From Minisyncoccia bacterium (lineage in GTDB: Bacteria; Patescibacteriota; Minisyncoccia; Phycocordibacterales; UBA9973), in assembly GCA_965656375.1 (NCBI GenBank), contig CBFHKH010000001.1, positions 345,319-409,318 of the forward strand: DNA of 64,000 bases, in the 5' to 3' direction. Positions within the stretch are counted from its first letter, which is position 1. Each line of letters begins with the position of its first letter. Of this stretch, positions 3,031 through 33,502 are shown piece after piece. The notes below the pieces were generated by a model that saw nothing but the letters and a program-made list of their open reading frames with translations, ran no database searches and was not told the DNA's origin. The position numbers and the translations under genes were made by a program.

Positions 3031-3149
3031 TGCTCCTCGGGTAGGGTATCTCGGCTTACCGCCGCTGGTACTTTCTCGATTGCAAATCAATACGAGAAAG
3101 TCTTTCGATCCCTACACGAAAGCAAAGCAGTTTGCTTTCTCCGAGGAGC
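3031..3149 (-). ncRNA. E1: structured tRNA-flanked element. The terminal 9-bp helix GCUCCUCGG/CCGAGGAGC reuses the tRNA-Asn acceptor sequence, and there are two internal perfect hairpins
   Basis: Lies 50 nt 3' of tRNA-Asn. Its last 15 nt are identical to the tRNA-Asn 3' end. Homologous to E2 with compensatory helix changes. Confidence 0.45.
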
Positions 3150-3151
3150 TC

Positions 3152-3184
3152 AAAAAATCAAAGGCCACCATTTCTGGTGACCTA
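3152..3184 (-). terminator. intrinsic terminator of tRNA-Asn (AGGUCACCA-GAAA-UGGUGGCCU followed by a U-run)
   Basis: Hairpin with a GNRA loop followed by 6 U. Confidence 0.5.
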
Positions 3185-3197
3185 AGATTTTTGCGAG

Positions 3198-3269
3198 CTC
3201 CTCGGGTAGGGATCGAACCTACGACCAATCGATTAACAGTCGATTGCTCTACCGCTGAGCTACCGAGGA
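3198..3269 (-). tRNA. tRNA-Asn (anticodon GUU)
   Basis: Cloverleaf read by hand: acceptor TCCTCGG/CCGAGGA, anticodon loop CTGTTAA, T-arm GTAGG-TTCGATC-CCTAC. Confidence 0.9.
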
Positions 3270-3404: not shown

Positions 3405-3965
3405 TTAGTGACTTGCAACTGTATGAACATGATGTGCAGGCTTTCGTCCAAGCATACGAGCGATAATGATAATCACAAGTATCAGTAGTATTACCAGGAG
3501 CCACTGCCAAATAGAACTTGGCATAAATGAACCTGAACCATTTACAGAAAGTGCTGTGAGTTCACTTCTATTGTTAGTTGGGTAGAGGCTACCATATACC
3601 TGATTTTGTGGGACATTGTTTGAAGTGTTTACAGTACTATTTGTATTTGTTGTATTCGCACGTGCTACGGTACGTGTAGTTGTTGTACGATTCGTTGAAA
3701 CAGTCTTTGTAGGTGTCTGTGTTTGCGCAGGTGCTACAGTCTGAGTGTTATTAGTAGTGGTAACTGTGTTTGAATTCGTAGTTGTAGGCTGGACTGGAGT
3801 AGTGTACGCAGTAGAAACTGGAGTCGAAAATGTAGGATTGCTATTTACTGGACGCGGCTGCGGATCCCACACACCTGGTACATATGCTGATGCAGTTTGA
3901 AAACTCACAAGTAGTAATACTGCTGTTCCGGCTGCTATTAGGTTTTTGATTGTTTTATTATTCAT
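3405..3965 (-). CDS. secreted Thr/Asn-rich low-complexity protein with a C-terminal hydrophobic anchor
   Basis: Signal peptide MNNKTIKNLIAAGTAVLLLVSFQTASA, followed by a T/N/Q-rich region, then WQWLLVILLILVIIIIARMLGRK. Confidence 0.45.
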   Translation of the reverse strand: MNNKTIKNLIAAGTAVLLLVSFQTASAYVPGVWDPQPRPVNSNPTFSTPVSTAYTTPVQPTTTNSNTVTTTNNTQTVAPAQTQTPTKTVSTNRTTTTRTVARANTTNTNSTVNTSNNVPQNQVYGSLYPTNNRSELTALSVNGSGSFMPSSIWQWLLVILLILVIIIIARMLGRKPAHHVHTVASH

Positions 3966-5339: not shown

Positions 5340-7898
5340 ATGCCACGAATAACACAAAAAAAGAATATTCGGCTTGTTCCCCATGTGCGACCAGAGCGAT
5401 ATACCCTCACCATCAAGCCTGACCTCGAAGCATTTATATTTGAAGGTAAAGAAATCATATCGATAATCTTGGATAAGTCACTCCGTGCGATCACACTTCA
5501 CTCAAAAGATATCAAGATCCATACCGTAGAAATACACTCTGGTAAAGAAAGTCAGTTTGCAACAAAGATCACATATGACACTAAAAATGAAACTGCCACA
5601 TTCACTTTCAAACAACCCATCAAAAAAGGAAAAGCGAAGCTTTCACTTGTCTTTGAAGGAATCATAAGTGATACTCTTCGCGGGTTCTACCGGAGTCGAT
5701 ATACAATCGAAGGAAAAACTCGCCATTTGGCAACAACGCAATTTGAAGCAACAGATGCAAGGCGTGCATTTCCATGCTTTGATGAACCTGCGCAAAAAGC
5801 AATTTTCGACGTATCACTTATCGTTCCTGGTGATCATACTGCAATATCGAATACCCTGCCGACTCGTATACGCGAGCATGAAGGTGGATATAAGGTTATT
5901 GAATTTGCATCCACTCCTCGAATGTCCACATATCTACTCGCATTTATCATCGGCGAGTTTGAATACGTCGAAGGATATACAAAAGACAAAGTCCAGGTAC
6001 GGGTGTTCACAACGATAGGAAAGAAGCACCAGGCACAATTCGCACTCGACGTCGCAATTAAATCACTTGAATTCTATAACGAATATTTCAATATTCCCTA
6101 TCCACTTCCTGTACTCGATATGATTGCAATTCCAGACTTTGAGTCGGGAGCCATGGAGAACTGGGGCGCGATCACCTATCGAGAAACAGCTCTCTTAGTA
6201 GACAAGAATAATTCTTCCCTTTCCAACAAGCAGTGGGTAGCTGTCGTCGTTGCCCATGAGATCGCTCACCAATGGTTTGGTAACCTTGTGACTATGGAAT
6301 GGTGGACGGATCTGTGGCTCAATGAAGGATTTGCATCATATATGGAGAATCTCTGCACCGATCATATATTCCCCGAGTGGCGTATGTGGGATTTATACCT
6401 AGCCGATCGATATGCAGTAGCCCTACGCCTCGACGCACTTGCAAATTCGCATCCTATAGAAGTTACGGTACATCATCCAAATGAAATAAGTGAGATATTT
6501 GATATGGTCTCATATGCAAAAGGCTCTGCAGTGATACGCATGATTGCAGAATATGTAGGAGCGGAAAAATTCCGTGATGGATTACGTCACTATTTAAAAA
6601 AACATAGTTACAAAAATACAGTGACAACTGACCTCTGGCATTCATTTGAGAAAGCAAGCGGTAAACCTGTGAAAAAAATGATGGAATCATGGACAAAGAA
6701 AACTGGCTACCCGCTCGTTACGCTTTTACGTGGTAAAAATGGGTACAGCGCAAAGCAAGAACGGTTCTTTTCAAGCAGAATTTCTGCAAAAAAAAGTACG
6801 ACAACTACCGTATGGCAAATTCCATTCAAATATGAAAGTGATGCAGGATCCCACACTGTTCTTGCTACAGGAAAGTCTATCTCGCTCACAGGTAATTCAA
6901 TCGGAAAAATAAACCTAAACGAGGGTTCATTTATGCGAACTCGCTACGATTCAGCCACTCTTGAACATCTGAAAAGTAAGGTACTAAAAAATACTCTTGA
7001 TGTAAAAGACAGACTTGGGCTCATACGTGATTTATTCGCCCTCGCAGAAGGTGGCTATATTAAAGTAGTTGATGCCCTAGAATTCTCACGTGCATATAAA
7101 AATGAAAAGGAATATATCGTCTGGTCTGAGATCGCAAGTGGTATACAAAGAATCTACAACCTCATTTCTGACGAACCATTTACGGATACCTATAGAGCAT
7201 ACGCGCGTTCACTCTTCACACCACTTGCAGAACGTATGACCTTTGAAAAGAAAAAGGGTGAAGATCACTCAGATACATTTCTTCGTTCACTGGCACTTTC
7301 ACAAGCCGCATTCTATGGCGATGAGCGAGTAATTAAAAAAGCGCGCTCACTCTTTACAAAAATGAAGTCTCACCCAATACCTGCTGATATACGAAGCGTC
7401 GTATATACGATCGTCGCCCAAAATGGTGGAAAAAAAGAATATAATGCATTCATGAATCTATTTTTAAATGAAGAACTTCATGAAGAAAAAGATCGCTATG
7501 GTCGCGCACTCACTTCATTTAGAGATAAAACACTCCTTGCTCGAACGCTTATGTTTGCTCTCTCAAAGGATGTACGCACTCAAGATGCACCATATATGCT
7601 TGCTGCTGTATGGCAAAATACCACTGGACGAGATCTCGCATGGAAATTCATACAGCACAACTGGAAAATAATTCTTGCTCGTTATGGCGAGGGAGGATTT
7701 ATTTCGCGAATGCTTACTCCGCTCGGTAGTCATACCAAAACAAATGATGCAGTATATGCAAAGAAATTCTTTTCAAAAAATCTTGCCCCGGGAGCAGAAC
7801 GTACACTCGAACAAGCCTACGAACGAATTTTATCTAATGCGTTGTGGCTGAAAACTGACAAAACAAGTATTAAAAACTGGCTTCATAACAACTACTAA
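5340..7898 (+). CDS. pepN: aminopeptidase N (M1 family)
   Basis: GAMENWG, HEIAHQWFGN and WLNEGFASY motifs. The ATG at 5340 (MPRITQ) is preferred over the upstream TTG in the track. Confidence 0.9.
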   Translation: MPRITQKKNIRLVPHVRPERYTLTIKPDLEAFIFEGKEIISIILDKSLRAITLHSKDIKIHTVEIHSGKESQFATKITYDTKNETATFTFKQPIKKGKAKLSLVFEGIISDTLRGFYRSRYTIEGKTRHLATTQFEATDARRAFPCFDEPAQKAIFDVSLIVPGDHTAISNTLPTRIREHEGGYKVIEFASTPRMSTYLLAFIIGEFEYVEGYTKDKVQVRVFTTIGKKHQAQFALDVAIKSLEFYNEYFNIPYPLPVLDMIAIPDFESGAMENWGAITYRETALLVDKNNSSLSNKQWVAVVVAHEIAHQWFGNLVTMEWWTDLWLNEGFASYMENLCTDHIFPEWRMWDLYLADRYAVALRLDALANSHPIEVTVHHPNEISEIFDMVSYAKGSAVIRMIAEYVGAEKFRDGLRHYLKKHSYKNTVTTDLWHSFEKASGKPVKKMMESWTKKTGYPLVTLLRGKNGYSAKQERFFSSRISAKKSTTTTVWQIPFKYESDAGSHTVLATGKSISLTGNSIGKINLNEGSFMRTRYDSATLEHLKSKVLKNTLDVKDRLGLIRDLFALAEGGYIKVVDALEFSRAYKNEKEYIVWSEIASGIQRIYNLISDEPFTDTYRAYARSLFTPLAERMTFEKKKGEDHSDTFLRSLALSQAAFYGDERVIKKARSLFTKMKSHPIPADIRSVVYTIVAQNGGKKEYNAFMNLFLNEELHEEKDRYGRALTSFRDKTLLARTLMFALSKDVRTQDAPYMLAAVWQNTTGRDLAWKFIQHNWKIILARYGEGGFISRMLTPLGSHTKTNDAVYAKKFFSKNLAPGAERTLEQAYERILSNALWLKTDKTSIKNWLHNNY

Positions 7899-20381: not shown

Positions 20382-20465
20382 ACTATATATGATATCAAAT
20401 GCATATTTTGTTCACAACATAAAATGAAAAACACCCTGCTTTGGACAAGGCGTCTTTCATATAAT

Positions 20466-20870
20466 GATTTGTACCTATAAGCCGAATTCTGTACTCCGAC
20501 GCAAGGTCGGAGCGATAGATATTTATCTAGGCTTCTCGTTACCAAGAGGCTCAAGCGACTCTCCCCGACTATAACGTCGGGGCACGGTCTTGCACACACG
20601 TAAGGATTTAGCTCCGACGCCCTTTCGGGGTCGGAGAGCCGACAGAATCGTCGGCTCCGTTTCACCTAAAGAGTTACCTCAATAGCTTATCCCATGGGGA
20701 TATCCTACCCTTTCGGGATTAGACGTCTCTGCTCGCACCTCTACCGTTGCCGGCGACGGGCGTTACCCGCTACGGACCCACTGACCATGCCTGCGCAGGC
20801 AGGTTGCTCAGTGATATGTGTTCGGACTTTCCTCACTCAAGTTACCTCGAGCGCATCTATCCAATACAAA
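20466..20870 (-). ncRNA. rnpB: RNase P RNA, bacterial type A
   Basis: GAGGAAAGUCCGAAC (P4), GGUAACGCC, UAGGUGAAACGG, UUGAGCC...GCCUAGAUAAAU and ACAGAAUUCGGCUUAUAGGUAC blocks are colinear with E. coli M1 RNA; own promoter TTGTCA-17-TATACT. Confidence 0.85.
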
Positions 20871-20877
20871 CCGAACT

Positions 20878-22182: not shown

Positions 22183-23717
<1,535 letters not shown>

Positions 23718-23954
23718 CTAAAAAATAGAACGGAACAAAAGAAAAAACATTTATTCCTTGCCTGCATTTTTACATGCAGACTAACTGGTGCCTCACAGTT
23801 GCACCTGGAGGACTTTCTTCACCAAACCGATTGTGATTAGCATTGGTTTGGCTAGCCTGTTTCTATAGATACTATAGTCACAGGACTTACTATGATTGCA
23901 TACCTATTCTCTTATCAAAGAAATACAGCCCAATAAGTTACCGGACTGTGGGTT

Positions 23955-30249: not shown

Positions 30250-30738
30250 TTAGCATGAACGAGTCATGCATACTGGCTGACTGTATGTCATCGGATTGTA
30301 GTAGTTGCTAGAGTAATTCTGACCCTGATACCATCCTTGTGATGGAGATACTACACCGTATCCGTACCCACTGTTGTATGAACTACATGGGTTGTATCCA
30401 CATGTGCTATATACAGGATAAACATCATAGTACTGGTTACAGCCATAGTCACAGTAGTCATCATAACCACCGTATCCATATCCGTAATCATTGTAACCAT
30501 AGTTACTATAGCCACAATCATTGTAATACTGACAATCATCGTATCCATACCCATAATCGTCGTAACCGCCATACTCATCGTAGCCATATCCATTGTTATA
30601 GCCACCATTACCAAAACCAAGGCCTAAGCTTATTGAGAAATTATCCCAAAATGAAGCTTCTGACTTTGTAGGCATGACGAAAAGTCCGAGAACAAACATA
30701 CTGATAATAATTGAAAATGTTGCGATTCCTTTTTTCAT
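30250..30738 (-). CDS. secreted Tyr/Gly/Asp-rich low-complexity protein with 8 Cys
   Basis: Signal peptide MKKGIATFSIIISMFVLGLFVMPTKSEA followed by (Y/G/D/N)-rich repeats; the antisense His-rich ORFs are artefacts. Confidence 0.5.
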   Translation of the reverse strand: MKKGIATFSIIISMFVLGLFVMPTKSEASFWDNFSISLGLGFGNGGYNNGYGYDEYGGYDDYGYGYDDCQYYNDCGYSNYGYNDYGYGYGGYDDYCDYGCNQYYDVYPVYSTCGYNPCSSYNSGYGYGVVSPSQGWYQGQNYSSNYYNPMTYSQPVCMTRSC

Positions 30739-30759
30739 AATAGGCGTATTATACACCTT

Positions 30760-31563: not shown

Positions 31564-31637
31564 TTGGGGATCGTCTAATGGTAGGACAGCGGCCTTTGAA
31601 GCCGTTAATTGGGGTTCGAATCCCTGTCCCCAAGCCA
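31564..31637 (+). tRNA. tRNA-Gln (anticodon UUG), with CCA encoded
   Basis: Acceptor TTGGGGA/TCCCCAA, 3-bp D-stem, anticodon loop CTTTGAA, T-arm TGGGG-TTCGAAT-CCCTG. Confidence 0.85.
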
Positions 31638-31660
31638 AAAAATCACGCAGTAATTTTTGC

Positions 31661-31837
31661 TTGGGGAAGCAACTAAACTGCTTTAGTTGCGTCAGGGATT
31701 CGAAAGACTTTTCTGTCATTTGGTTACAAATGCAGAAAAGTACCTGGCTACGTGGTAGCCGAAAAGCGTACTCGCGGTCCTTGTTCTTAAAAGGTGTACT
31801 GATCCTGTAAGGATCGAAATTCCCTGTCCCCAAGCCA
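31661..31837 (+). ncRNA. E2: structured tRNA-flanked element. Begins TTGGGGA (the tRNA-Gln 5' acceptor strand) and ends CCCTGTCCCCAAGCCA (an exact copy of the tRNA-Gln 3' end); contains the hairpins GCAACUAAA-CUGC-UUUAGUUGC and CUUUUCUG...CAGAAAAG
   Basis: Lies 24 nt 3' of tRNA-Gln; colinear with E1, with compensatory changes in both helices; conserved GGGAUUCGAAAGAC linker. Confidence 0.45.
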
Positions 31838-32556: not shown

Positions 32557-33363
32557 TTAAGAAAGAATTATTTTCTTTTCCATAAGAATCTCATTTACTT
32601 TCTCTTTAATTCCTTCACGGGCTGGATATGTTTCCATAGAGCCAAGGTTCCTCCTAAAATGGACAACAAGGAGAAGAATTGCCATTTCTGTACCAATCAA
32701 ATTACTGGCGGAGTTCACTCCTTCTAATCCATTTTCTTCAATAAGCTGTGCAGCACGATGATACTGCTCAAGTTTAATACTGGAAGTTTCTTTTGTATAC
32801 CATTCTCCGTCAATTTCATAAGCAATTGTTTTTTCATACAATTCTTGTATTGTAATCTTCAAACTTTCAGCAACAGCTTTTCTACTACCATTGTGTTCTT
32901 TCAATTGCCTAATTATTTCTGTTTTTTCTGATACCAATGTTCCTCTAACTTCCATAAGAAGATATCCGAGGTGGTTTTTACCAACTCCTTGGCATGTCCC
33001 CCAAAATGTATCCTCCCAGGTATTTCCTTCTTCAAGATAACAATCCCCTGTTGCAATCAACGATCTTGTGAGGAATGGTTCTTTGCCGCCAAATTTAATT
33101 AAAAGTAACTTTTCCATAACTCTTAATTTTTTTGGAATTGTCCAGTCATGGTCAGGTTTCAGATTATGATCATCAAGGTAACTTTTCGCTTTACCAGGTG
33201 TTTGGCAATTCTGTATCATTTTTTTGACATGAGGACTCTCTACTTTTGATGCAGCATATGCATGTTCGAGAGTTGGATAAAGTAGGCCTTCATATACTAT
33301 ATGAGATGGCCAAAAATTTGAGAGGAATCGATATCCTCCTTGAAAAGAACTAATCTTGCTCAT
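32557..33363 (-). CDS. NADAR-domain protein (YbiA-like, ADP-ribose processing) with a C-terminal extension of about 110 aa of unknown function
   Basis: GGYRFLSNFWPS...YPTLEHAYAASK motifs of NADAR; ATG at 33363 preferred over the upstream GTG. Confidence 0.6.
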   Translation of the reverse strand: MSKISSFQGGYRFLSNFWPSHIVYEGLLYPTLEHAYAASKVESPHVKKMIQNCQTPGKAKSYLDDHNLKPDHDWTIPKKLRVMEKLLLIKFGGKEPFLTRSLIATGDCYLEEGNTWEDTFWGTCQGVGKNHLGYLLMEVRGTLVSEKTEIIRQLKEHNGSRKAVAESLKITIQELYEKTIAYEIDGEWYTKETSSIKLEQYHRAAQLIEENGLEGVNSASNLIGTEMAILLLVVHFRRNLGSMETYPAREGIKEKVNEILMEKKIILS

Positions 33364-33502
33364 AACTCTAATTTTTAGAACATCTTCTGTTGATAAGGGA
33401 AGAAGATTTACCCTGTTACCATTTCTAGTCACCTATTGCGATAAATAGGAATTATTTATTACCTTCATAGTACATATATTATCAGAACTTGTCAATAATA
33501 AG

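What the first reader, a model, noticed from the sequence alone, without database searches (positions are those of the whole stretch)
31564..31837. tRNA-Gln followed 24 nt later by E2, a 177-nt structured tRNA-like element that copies the tRNA's acceptor ends (type member of a new element family)
E2 starts with TTGGGGA, the tRNA-Gln 5' acceptor strand, and ends with CCCTGTCCCCAAGCCA, which is identical over 16 nt to the tRNA-Gln T-stem-acceptor-CCA 3' end. It can therefore close an acceptor/T-like minihelix of its own. Inside it are two perfect hairpins (GCAACUAAA-CUGC-UUUAGUUGC and CUUUUCUG..17 nt..CAGAAAAG) and a conserved single-stranded GUCAGGGAUUCGAAAGAC segment, whose CAGGGA can pair long-range with the 3' UCCCUG. 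The paralogue E1 next to tRNA-Asn has the same architecture, but its helix sequences differ while staying perfectly paired (GAAAGCAAA/UUUGCUUUC and CUUUCUCG/CGAGAAAG; long-range GUAGGG/CCCUAC), and its ends match tRNA-Asn instead of tRNA-Gln. Compensatory changes of this kind argue for a functional RNA structure, not a decaying tRNA duplicate. The exact 15-16-nt direct repeat of the tRNA 3' end is also the classical signature of site-specific integration into tRNA genes. The elements could therefore be (a) a novel family of tRNA-like small RNAs processed by RNase P and RNase Z, (b) miniature integrase-mobilised elements that reconstitute the target tRNA, or (c) both. The GGGAUUCGAA linker is reminiscent of the conserved GGAUUCGAC of the tmRNA tRNA-like domain, but the elements are too short for tmRNA and carry no tag reading frame.
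Basis: seen in the sequence. Interest (0 to 1): 0.88.

Follow-up and report, generated by a model that had tools for sequence, protein, structure and literature searches.

The report
New tRNA-tethered structured RNA family
Directly behind many tRNA and tmRNA genes of Patescibacteria sits a conserved, tightly folded 110-180-nt RNA element whose closing stem is a fold-back copy of the neighbouring tRNA's own 3' end. It matches no described RNA family, and its function is still unknown.

Summary
E2 (31661-31837, +) follows tRNA-Gln, and E1 (3032-3151, -) follows tRNA-Asn. A covariance model built without E2 finds it at 97 bits and finds nothing else in the window. The same model finds 123 further copies in about 90 Patescibacteria loci and none in about 30 control loci. 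Of all 124 hits, 93 lie within 120 nt downstream of a same-strand tRNA. All 20 isotypes are covered, and four copies follow tmRNA. Helices P2, P3, P4 and P5 are 91-99% paired, and every pair shows double changes. Rfam 15 and the literature searches give no match.

The left arm is the Watson-Crick reverse complement of tRNA nt 54-73, not a copy of the 5' acceptor strand, so Ala G3.U70 becomes A3-U70. The right arm is a direct repeat from nt 57 onward. The acceptor-like helix is intact in only 24 of 67 copies; both window copies have it.

My best reading is a functional non-coding RNA gene family born by fold-back duplication of tRNA 3' ends. The conserved payload is the T-stem-closed three-way junction plus P2. 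A protein-less mobile element is the main rival. Function was not shown.

The parts
31564..31637 (+). tRNA-Gln(UUG) with encoded CCA; donor of the arm sequences of E2
   Evidence: ARAGORN; Rfam tRNA model, 61.1 bits
31638..31660 (+). 23-nt A/T-rich spacer. Together with the tRNA 3' strand and the E2 5' strand it forms an imperfect palindrome.
   Evidence: Sequence; no terminator-like site was called here
31661..31667 (+). E2 left arm, part a (P1 5' strand): complement of tRNA nt 66-72
31669..31690 (+). P2 hairpin, 9 bp with a CUGC loop. The AAACUGCUUU tip is conserved in the family.
   Evidence: Fold; 99.3% of cells paired and all 9 pairs with double changes
31693..31704 (+). E2 left arm, part b (P3 5' strand plus GAA): exact reverse complement of the tRNA-Gln T loop plus T-stem 3' strand (nt 54-65)
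31705..31744 (+). AGAC, the P4 hairpin (31707-31741), and the GUACC junction of the three-way-junction core
   Evidence: (P4 98% paired)
31745..31761 (+). P5 hairpin with a GUG triloop
   Evidence: (P5 91% paired)
31766..31815 (+). Optional 3' modules of the long subtype: the small hairpin GCGUACUCGC (31766-31775), an inner degenerate copy of the T3'/acceptor 3' strands (31778-31790, UCCUUGUUCUUAA), and a type-B module GGUGUACUG plus hairpin (31793-31815)
   Evidence: R1 aligns its 3' closure to 31778-31791; the same modules occur in L006, L009, L011 and L042; coordinates
31816..31837 (+). E2 right arm: direct repeat of tRNA-Gln nt 57-76 with a 1-nt insertion, including the discriminator and CCA
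3197..3269 (-). tRNA-Asn(GUU), no encoded CCA; donor of the arm sequences of E1
3152..3183 (-). Terminator-like hairpin plus T-run between tRNA-Asn and E1
3032..3151 (-). E1: leader plus left arm a (3139-3151), P2 (3118-3139), left arm b = reverse complement of tRNA-Asn nt 54-65 (3104-3115), P4 (3070-3101), P5 (3052-3065), right-arm direct repeat (3032-3050)
   Evidence: (103.4 bits)

Best explanation
E1 and E2 are genes of a Patescibacteria-specific family of structured non-coding RNAs. Each gene is anchored to the 3' end of a tRNA or tmRNA gene.

**Composition.** Each element has family-specific modules:
- AG, then the P2 hairpin with an ACUGCU tip, then CGU;
- AGAC, then P4, GUACC and P5, which form a three-way junction.

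These modules are set inside a fold-back copy of the neighbouring gene's 3' part. The left arm is the Watson-Crick reverse complement of tRNA nt 54-73 plus trailer, interrupted by P2 exactly at the acceptor/T-stem boundary. The right arm is a direct repeat of nt 57-73 plus trailer.

**What is shown.**
- The family exists.
- Its arms follow the local tRNA.
- P2, P3 (T-stem sequence plus 4 bp), P4 and P5 are maintained by compensatory evolution on the tRNA-sense strand.

**What is inferred.**
- The element is made by read-through co-transcription with the tRNA.
- The P3-closed junction plus P2 is the functional payload, probably a protein- or RNA-binding platform that acts in trans.
- The acceptor-derived arms are mainly a birth mark of a DNA-level direct-inverted-direct duplication. 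Its switch points are two palindromes: the tRNA terminator and the universal T-loop TTCGAA.
- In copies that still have both acceptor strands, such as E1 and E2, the arms may also let RNase P and the 3' tRNA-processing enzymes trim the RNA.
For: **The family is real.**
- Model R1, built without E2, scores E2 at 97.0 bits and E1 at 103.4 bits. The next best hit in the 64-kb window scores 8.8 bits.
- R1 gives 123 further hits in Patescibacteria loci and none in about 30 non-Patescibacteria loci that were fetched by the same DNA pattern.

**The structure is conserved.**
- 92% of cells are paired, against 45-49% when the partners are slid. All 33 pairs show double changes. Per helix: P2 99%, P4 98%, P3 93%, P5 91%.
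- G.U to A.C is 52 to 19 in P2-P5, which points to an RNA of the tRNA-sense strand.

**Position.** 93 of 124 hits have a same-strand tRNA within 120 nt upstream, against 1 on the opposite strand. All 20 isotypes are covered. Four copies follow tmRNA.

**The arms follow the local tRNA.**
- The 12 nt ending in the GAA of GAAAGAC equal the reverse complement of the T loop plus T3' strand with at most 1 mismatch in 54 of 67 copies. They follow T-loop variants.
- tRNA G.U pairs are Watson-Crick in the element.
- The direct repeat can run through the trailer and terminator.

**Maintenance and turnover.**
- Orthologous tRNA-Gln elements in five genomes differ by compensatory changes in P2 and P4.
- Copies within one genome are as divergent as copies between genomes.
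- No protein gene recurs next to the elements.
Against: **No expression data.** A terminator-like hairpin separates the tRNA from the element in 43 of 92 cases, and no promoter is evident. Transcription therefore rests on read-through.

**Signs of gain, loss or replacement.** These fit a mobile element as well.
- Occupancy of orthologous tRNA sites varies between genomes.
- The same tRNA can carry a type A core, a type C core or nothing.
- Core similarity does not follow isotype.

**No binding partner is known.**

**Limits of the data.**
- The covariation counts come from a model-fitted alignment.
- The sample was gathered with an exact pattern (AAACTGCTTT...GAAAGACTTT), which inflates the apparent conservation of those motifs.
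- G.T tolerance on one strand would also fit a single-stranded DNA hairpin.
Confidence: 0.45

Rival explanations
1. The element is a protein-less, or trans-mobilised, miniature mobile or selfish element that inserts behind tRNA and tmRNA genes. It rebuilds its arms from the target. One route would use the universal T-loop TTCGAA palindrome and the terminator palindrome as template-switch or recombination points. The structured core would serve propagation, not the host.
For: - A direct repeat starts at the centre of the T loop, as at T-loop-type integration sites, and an inverted copy lies beside it.
- tmRNA genes are also targets.
- There are tandem arrays and truncated copies.
- Orthologous tRNA sites are empty, type A or type C in different genomes.
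- At least three core types share the same kind of arms.
- Acceptor arms decay independently, like scars.
- Core similarity cuts across isotypes. For example, an Arg element and a Gln element from different genomes score 0.83.
Against: - No integrase, transposase or reverse transcriptase recurs in 89 loci.
- There is no genuine hit in viral contigs.
- There are no near-identical copies within a genome apart from tandem duplicates.
- Orthologues persist with compensatory change.
- P2 always sits exactly at the acceptor/T boundary. That position reflects RNA architecture, and a simple DNA event does not explain it.
Confidence: 0.25
2. The element is a cis-acting partner of the upstream tRNA. In read-through transcripts the left arm pairs with the tRNA's 3' acceptor and T strands plus trailer. 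The left arm is a better, fully Watson-Crick partner than the tRNA's own 5' strands. The pairing gives a strand-swapped or long-hairpin precursor that controls maturation, storage or decay of that tRNA.
For: - Where the element's own 3' copy differs from the tRNA, the 5' arm is Watson-Crick to the tRNA strand at 31 of 34 positions.
- 27 of 67 copies keep the 5' arm without a partner of their own.
- tRNA G.U pairs are replaced by Watson-Crick pairs.
- The leader also pairs with the tRNA trailer.
- The minimum-free-energy folds of both whole window transcripts are strand-swapped.
Against: - The same pattern is expected if both arms were perfect at birth and the 3' copy simply decays or is truncated faster.
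- The placement of decayed 3' copies is uncertain.
- The tRNA folds first during transcription.
- Fourteen copies have poor 5' arms.
- This reading gives no role to the conserved core.
Confidence: 0.12
3. The element is a tRNA-like small RNA closed by an acceptor/T minihelix. It is recognised like its cognate tRNA by RNase P, RNase Z, the CCA-adding enzyme and perhaps the aminoacyl-tRNA synthetase.
For: - E1 and E2, and 24 of 67 relatives, have both acceptor strands, the discriminator and, for tRNA-Gln, the CCA.
- P2 leaves the helix where the D and anticodon arms of a tRNA would.
Against: - The acceptor helix is only 77% paired, and its two strands are not co-retained: 24 copies have both, against about 29 expected if retention were independent.
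- A3-U70 replaces the AlaRS identity pair in five of six alanine-tRNA elements and in the tmRNA elements.
- P3 is 9 bp and has no T loop, so the 12-bp acceptor/T geometry is lost.
- There is no anticodon loop.
- Encoded CCA is not enriched.
Confidence: 0.08
4. The elements are non-functional debris: decaying tandem tRNA duplicates or replication-error palindromes behind tRNA genes.
For: - The arms decay.
- Partial and truncated copies exist.
- The direct-inverted-direct layout is what template-switch errors produce (inference).
Against: - Sequence motifs and four helices are conserved with compensatory changes across many Patescibacteria lineages, in streamlined genomes.
- Neither the tRNA model nor ARAGORN recognises the elements.
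Confidence: 0.04

Closest known systems
Genomic islands and cis-mobilisable elements integrated at the 3' end of tRNA or tmRNA genes (tyrosine-integrase att sites, T-loop sublocation; from established knowledge)
   Same: The position is the same: directly 3' of tRNA and tmRNA genes. The element is flanked by a direct repeat that starts in the T loop, runs to the 3' end or beyond, and leaves the tRNA intact.
   Different: The 'island' is only about 100 nt. It carries no integrase and no recurrent protein gene. It also has an inverted copy of the same segment, and its cargo is a covarying RNA structure.
tRNA-like non-coding RNAs and processing signals (mascRNA, plant mitochondrial t-elements, the tmRNA tRNA-like domain, bacterial YrlA Y RNAs; from established knowledge)
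   Same: The 5' and 3' ends can form an acceptor-like helix stacked on a T-stem-like helix. In E2 a discriminator and CCA follow.
   Different: There is no T loop, D arm or anticodon arm. The acceptor helix is often missing. The arm sequences are not fixed but copied from whichever tRNA lies upstream. Neither the tRNA model nor the tmRNA search gives a hit.
3' external-transcribed-spacer RNAs of tRNA operons, such as 3'ETS-leuZ of E. coli (from established knowledge)
   Same: Both would be functional RNAs made from the trailer of a tRNA transcript.
   Different: 3'ETS-leuZ is an unstructured sponge released by RNase E. It has no tRNA-derived arms and is not a multi-copy family.
[quoted passage not shown]
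   Same: Same phylum, and both are structured RNA physically tied to tRNA genes.
   Different: Those introns sit inside the anticodon loop (position 35/36), are self-splicing group I ribozymes, and are detectable with Rfam. The present elements lie outside an intact tRNA and match no intron model.
Quasi-palindrome template switching and DUP-TRP/INV-DUP rearrangements (DNA replication-error mechanisms; from established knowledge)
   Same: The layout is direct, inverted, direct copies of one short segment. The junctions lie at palindromes: the terminator and the T-loop TTCGAA.
   Different: Those are sporadic mutations. Here the product always carries the same conserved RNA modules and is kept across a phylum.
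ROOL and GOLLD large non-coding RNAs (from established knowledge)
   Same: They are orphan structured RNAs often found next to tRNA genes.
   Different: They are 500-800 nt, mostly phage-borne, and their sequence does not depend on the neighbouring tRNA. No Rfam hit was found here.

Membership tests
tRNA (Rfam RF00005) or tRNA pseudogene | Cloverleaf with D arm, 7-nt anticodon loop and T loop | tested here: not met
   ARAGORN and the Rfam tRNA model find only the six true tRNAs. Nothing is found at 31661-31837 or 3032-3151, even at E <= 10.
tmRNA | tRNA-like domain with a G3.U70 acceptor and a T arm, plus a tag reading frame and pseudoknots | tested here: not met
   ARAGORN finds no tmRNA in the window, and Rfam gives no hit. 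The GGGAUUCGAA similarity is the reverse complement of the neighbour's T loop and T stem.
Group I intron in a tRNA gene | Group I catalytic core inserted within the tRNA body | tested here: not met
   No Intron_gpI hit. The upstream tRNA is complete and the element lies outside it.
Integrase-mobilised island or CIME at a tRNA gene | Direct repeat of the tRNA 3' segment on both sides of the insert | tested here: met
   Exact 16-nt and 15-nt repeats in the window. In relatives the repeats start at nt 56/57 and reach up to about 45 nt.
Integrase-mobilised island or CIME at a tRNA gene | A tyrosine or serine recombinase encoded in the element, or recurrently nearby | tested here: not met
   ORF clustering over 89 loci gives only syntenic housekeeping genes. 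The test is limited to 8-kb tiles, so a recombinase encoded elsewhere in the genome is not excluded.
MITE or REP-type repeat | Constant terminal inverted repeats and many near-identical copies per genome | tested here: not met
   The terminal arms differ at every locus and follow the local tRNA. Same-genome copies are no more alike than copies from different genomes.
RNase P/RNase Z-processed tRNA-like RNA (mascRNA or t-element type) | Acceptor/T coaxial helix that the tRNA-processing enzymes recognise and cut | not testable with these tools
   The helix is present in E1, E2 and 24 of 67 relatives. Cleavage needs an enzymatic assay or end mapping.
Guide RNAs of RNA-guided recombinases or nucleases (IS110 bridge RNA, TnpB/IscB omega RNA, TIGR-Tas) | Encoded next to the effector gene, with unpaired guide segments | tested here: not met
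   No recurrent effector gene. The tRNA-matching segments are paired with each other. The TIGR array architecture is different.

The most novel reading that the evidence does not exclude
The elements are a protein-less 'target-templated' mobile RNA-gene cassette, or the guide-like RNA component of an unrecognised system that addresses tRNA genes. The universal T-loop sequence GTTCGA would act as the common entry or recognition point. The adjacent 16-20 nt, which differ in every tRNA, would be written into both arms of each new copy. That would explain how one conserved core comes to sit behind every tRNA isotype and tmRNA with perfectly matched arms.
Probability: 0.15. Interest if true: 0.95.

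Novelty: categorically new. Interest (0 to 1): 0.8.

Why it matters
**Scale.** Patescibacteria have some of the smallest and most streamlined bacterial genomes. Even so, many of them keep several copies of this element; single 8-kb stretches hold up to four.

**If it is a functional RNA.** It would be a new, phylum-wide RNA class tied to the translation apparatus of organisms whose biology is largely unknown.

**If it is mobile.** It would be a new way for a gene-sized RNA cassette to spread without any protein of its own, by writing the target tRNA's sequence into its own stem.

**Practical consequences.**
- The elements break assemblies at tRNA genes.
- Their tRNA 3'-end repeats could be mistaken for integration scars.
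- They are a ready target for metatranscriptomics and for structure determination.

Tried and rejected
1. **Gln/Asn link to the GatCAB transamidation route (U1-A72).** Rejected. Elements follow all 20 isotypes and tmRNA.
2. **Known RNA family.** Rfam 15 was run at gathering and at permissive thresholds on the window and on six loci. It returned only tRNAs and chance hits.
3. **Literature.** Six full-text searches found only the group I intron paper and the unrelated TIGR-Tas paper. A seventh search failed on syntax.
4. **Phage carriage.** A viral-contig scan gave one chance match with no tRNA and no AAGTACC.
5. **Associated protein.** ORF clustering gave only synteny of tRNA clusters: CCA-adding enzyme, YraN, LeuRS, IF2 and SmpB.
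6. **Encoded CCA enriched in elements relative to their tRNAs.** It is not: 4 cases against 2.
7. **Do cores cluster by isotype or by genome?** Only weakly. The nearest neighbour has the same isotype in 14 of 65 cases, against 5.5 expected.
8. **Strain-level filled and empty sites, by exact-protein look-ups of flanking genes.** Only the same organism and sample was returned.
9. **A promoter for the element itself.** None was found.
10. **Not used.** The metagenome scan, structure prediction and the protein-representative search; none bears on an RNA element.

Full report
**1. The observation**

tRNA-Gln(UUG) lies at 31564-31637 and includes its CCA. After a 23-nt spacer comes E2, 31661-31837 (177 nt). 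E2 ends with the same 16 nt as the tRNA, CCCTGTCCCCAAGCCA. That 16-mer occurs only at these two places in the window, and none is expected by chance.

E1 lies on the minus strand downstream of tRNA-Asn (3197-3269). A terminator-like hairpin (3152-3183) stands between them. E1 ends with a 15-nt copy of the tRNA-Asn 3' end.

Both elements fold much better than shuffled sequence: z = -6.3 for E2 and -6.8 for E1. They adopt the same architecture, with different but paired P2 and P4 sequences.

**2. A real family**

A homologue follows tRNA-Gln in a relative whose flanking DUF3750 protein is 88% identical. It shows compensatory changes in P2.

Of the matches, 89 also carry AAGTACC. All of these come from Patescibacteria records, mostly labelled Paceibacterota/Parcubacteria (record titles). 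The matches in other phyla lack AAGTACC.

A covariance model (R1) was built from 15 elements, without E2.
- In the window it scores E1 at 103.4 bits and E2 at 97.0 bits. The next best hit scores 8.8 bits.
- Over all held loci it gives 123 further hits. Several 8-kb tiles hold two to four.
- It gives none in about 30 non-Patescibacteria loci, which serve as a control.

On the 109-sequence alignment, 92% of cells are paired, against 45-49% when the partners are slid. All 33 pairs show double changes. Per helix the paired fractions are:

| Helix | Cells paired |
|---|---|
| P2 | 99% |
| P4 | 98% |
| P3 | 93% |
| P5 | 91% |
| P1 (acceptor-like) | 77% |

The alignment is fitted to the model, which favours the structure. 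G.U pairs outnumber A.C pairs 52 to 19 in P2-P5, so the folded strand is the tRNA-sense strand.

Rfam 15 has no matching family. Six literature searches returned nothing relevant.

**3. Where the elements sit**

- 93 of 124 hits have a same-strand tRNA within 120 nt upstream. One has an opposite-strand tRNA there.
- All 20 isotypes occur.
- Seven hits follow another element, forming tandem arrays. Four of the apparent solos follow the 3' end of the tmRNA gene.
- In the window, two of the six tRNAs carry an element. tRNA-Lys and tRNA-Tyr are followed by plain terminators.

**4. Anatomy, corrected**

The left arm is not a copy of the tRNA 5' strands.
- Wherever the tRNA acceptor stem has a G.U pair, the element has the Watson-Crick complement of the tRNA 3' strand. 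This holds for Ala G3.U70 and for Tyr, Val, His, Glu and Ile.
- The tmRNA-linked copies read GGAGATG, the complement of CATCTCC.
- The 12 nt that end in the GAA of the 'conserved' GAAAGAC equal the reverse complement of the neighbour's T loop plus T-stem 3' strand. The match has at most 1 mismatch in 54 of 67 copies and is perfect in 35. It follows the T-loop variants TTCGATT, TTCGAAT, TTCAAAT and TTCAAGT.

So the left arm is the inverted copy of nt 54-73 plus trailer, split by AG-P2-CGU exactly at the 65/66 boundary. The right arm is a direct repeat that begins at nt 56/57, the centre of the TTCGAA palindrome. It can run through the trailer and even the terminator.

The T-derived helix P3 is kept almost everywhere: 66 of 67 and 67 of 67 copies have at most 1 mismatch on the two strands. 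The acceptor strands behave differently:

| Acceptor strands intact | Copies (of 67) |
|---|---|
| 5' complement | 51 |
| 3' copy | 38 |
| both | 24 |
| only the 5' complement | 27 |
| only the 3' copy | 14 |
| neither | 2 |

About 29 copies with both strands would be expected if the strands were retained independently. There is therefore no co-retention.

Where the element's own 3' copy differs from the tRNA, the 5' arm still pairs with the tRNA strand at 31 of 34 positions. The placement of decayed copies is uncertain.

The acceptor/T 'minihelix' is thus present in E1 and E2 but is not a conserved feature of the family.

E2 belongs to a long subtype. It has an extra small hairpin, an inner degenerate closure (31778-31790), a type-B module (31793-31815) and an outer perfect repeat.

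**5. Dynamics**

- No protein family recurs beside the elements beyond the synteny of tRNA clusters. No integrase or reverse transcriptase was seen.
- A viral-contig scan gave one chance match.
- Cores do not group by genome and group only weakly by isotype.
- P4 comes in several discrete sequence types that are shared across isotypes.
- In a syntenic cluster (CCA-adding enzyme, Arg, Gly, YraN, Pro, Gly), the same tRNA carries a type A core, a GC-rich type C core or nothing, depending on the genome.
- tRNA-Lys(CUU) is empty in the window, carries type A in L061 and type C in L111.
- Tandem and truncated copies exist.
- A terminator-like hairpin lies between the tRNA and the element in 43 of 92 cases, and after the element in 19 of 92.
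- The minimum-free-energy fold of each whole tRNA-plus-element transcript in the window is strand-swapped, as the repeats predict.

**6. Interpretation**

Shown:
- a phylum-specific, covarying RNA structure;
- its attachment to tRNA and tmRNA 3' ends;
- arms dictated by the local tRNA.

Inferred, best reading (0.45): this is a functional non-coding RNA gene family. Its payload is P2 plus the P3-closed junction. It is made by read-through from the tRNA. The acceptor-derived arms mainly record a direct-inverted-direct duplication that switched at the terminator palindrome and at the T-loop TTCGAA. In intact copies such as E1 and E2, the arms may also permit tRNA-type end processing.

Rivals:
- a protein-less or trans-mobilised mobile element (0.25);
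- a cis-acting partner that captures the tRNA 3' strand (0.12);
- the literal tRNA-mimic reading (0.08);
- debris (0.04).

**7. Comparison and verdict**

The elements share position and direct repeat with tRNA-targeting islands, but they lack the recombinase. They share end-pairing with tRNA-like RNAs, but they lack the T loop, the D arm and the anticodon arm. They fail the tests for tRNA, tmRNA, group I intron, MITE/REP and guide RNA.

I know of no described element whose stem is rewritten to match whichever tRNA it follows.

- Novelty: categorically new.
- Function: unresolved.
- Interest: 0.8.

Noticed in passing
L092 downstream of tRNA-Gly(gcc) 3744-3815 (-); L104 downstream of tRNA-Gly(tcc) 6502-6573 (+); L111 downstream of tRNA-Lys(ctt); L014 2242-2420; L020; L021: A GC-rich 'type C' core (GACGGAG ... 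CGAGUCnGGGUCG ... GUGACC / CUGACCAC) sits between the same kind of tRNA-derived arms, sometimes without P2. It has no Rfam match and may be a second undescribed RNA family that uses the same docking site.
   Followed up: partly
L104:2771-2904 (+); L028:6329-6441 (-); L012 minus strand 520-772; L058:5697-6126 (+); window 31793-31815: A 'type B' core variant (GAARAcC, P4, GGUGUACUG, then a hairpin with a CUGUAAG loop). A GUAC motif after a GAAAAG run recurs in the P4/P5 junction, the small extra hairpin and the B module. This suggests repeated binding sites or alternative pairings with the CUUUUC strand.
   Followed up: partly
L002 start; L003-L005 ends; L006/L066; L125 end: Independent assemblies of relatives break inside tRNA-Gln or its element. 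One MAG splits the element between two contigs, so the repeats fragment short-read assemblies at tRNA genes.
   Followed up: no
window 22183-23723 (-) and 20462-20872 (-): The 16S rRNA gene has no 23S gene anywhere in the 64 kb. The RNase P RNA gene lies 1.3 kb downstream of it. At 411 nt it is longer than the 367-nt model and scores only 110.6 bits (gathering score 100), so it is a divergent RNase P RNA.
   Followed up: no
L042, L048, L058:1459-1581, L064: Elements also follow the tmRNA gene. In L048 the direct repeat spans the whole terminator, which has diverged by compensatory changes. Both terminators therefore appear to be kept functional.
   Followed up: partly
window 30250-30756 (-): A 168-aa ORF with an N-terminal hydrophobic segment and an extremely Gly/Tyr/Asp-rich low-complexity body. 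No Pfam scan was run on it.
   Followed up: no
window 32557-33432 (-): A 291-aa protein that combines a NADAR domain with a Fis-type HTH_8 motif. It lies two genes downstream of E2 on the opposite strand.
   Followed up: no
window 31778-31790 versus 31822-31834: The inner copy of the T3'/acceptor 3' strands in E2 differs from the outer copy by four C-to-T changes. All four keep G.U pairing with the 5' arms. This is compatible with two alternative closures, but also with AT-biased mutation.
   Followed up: no
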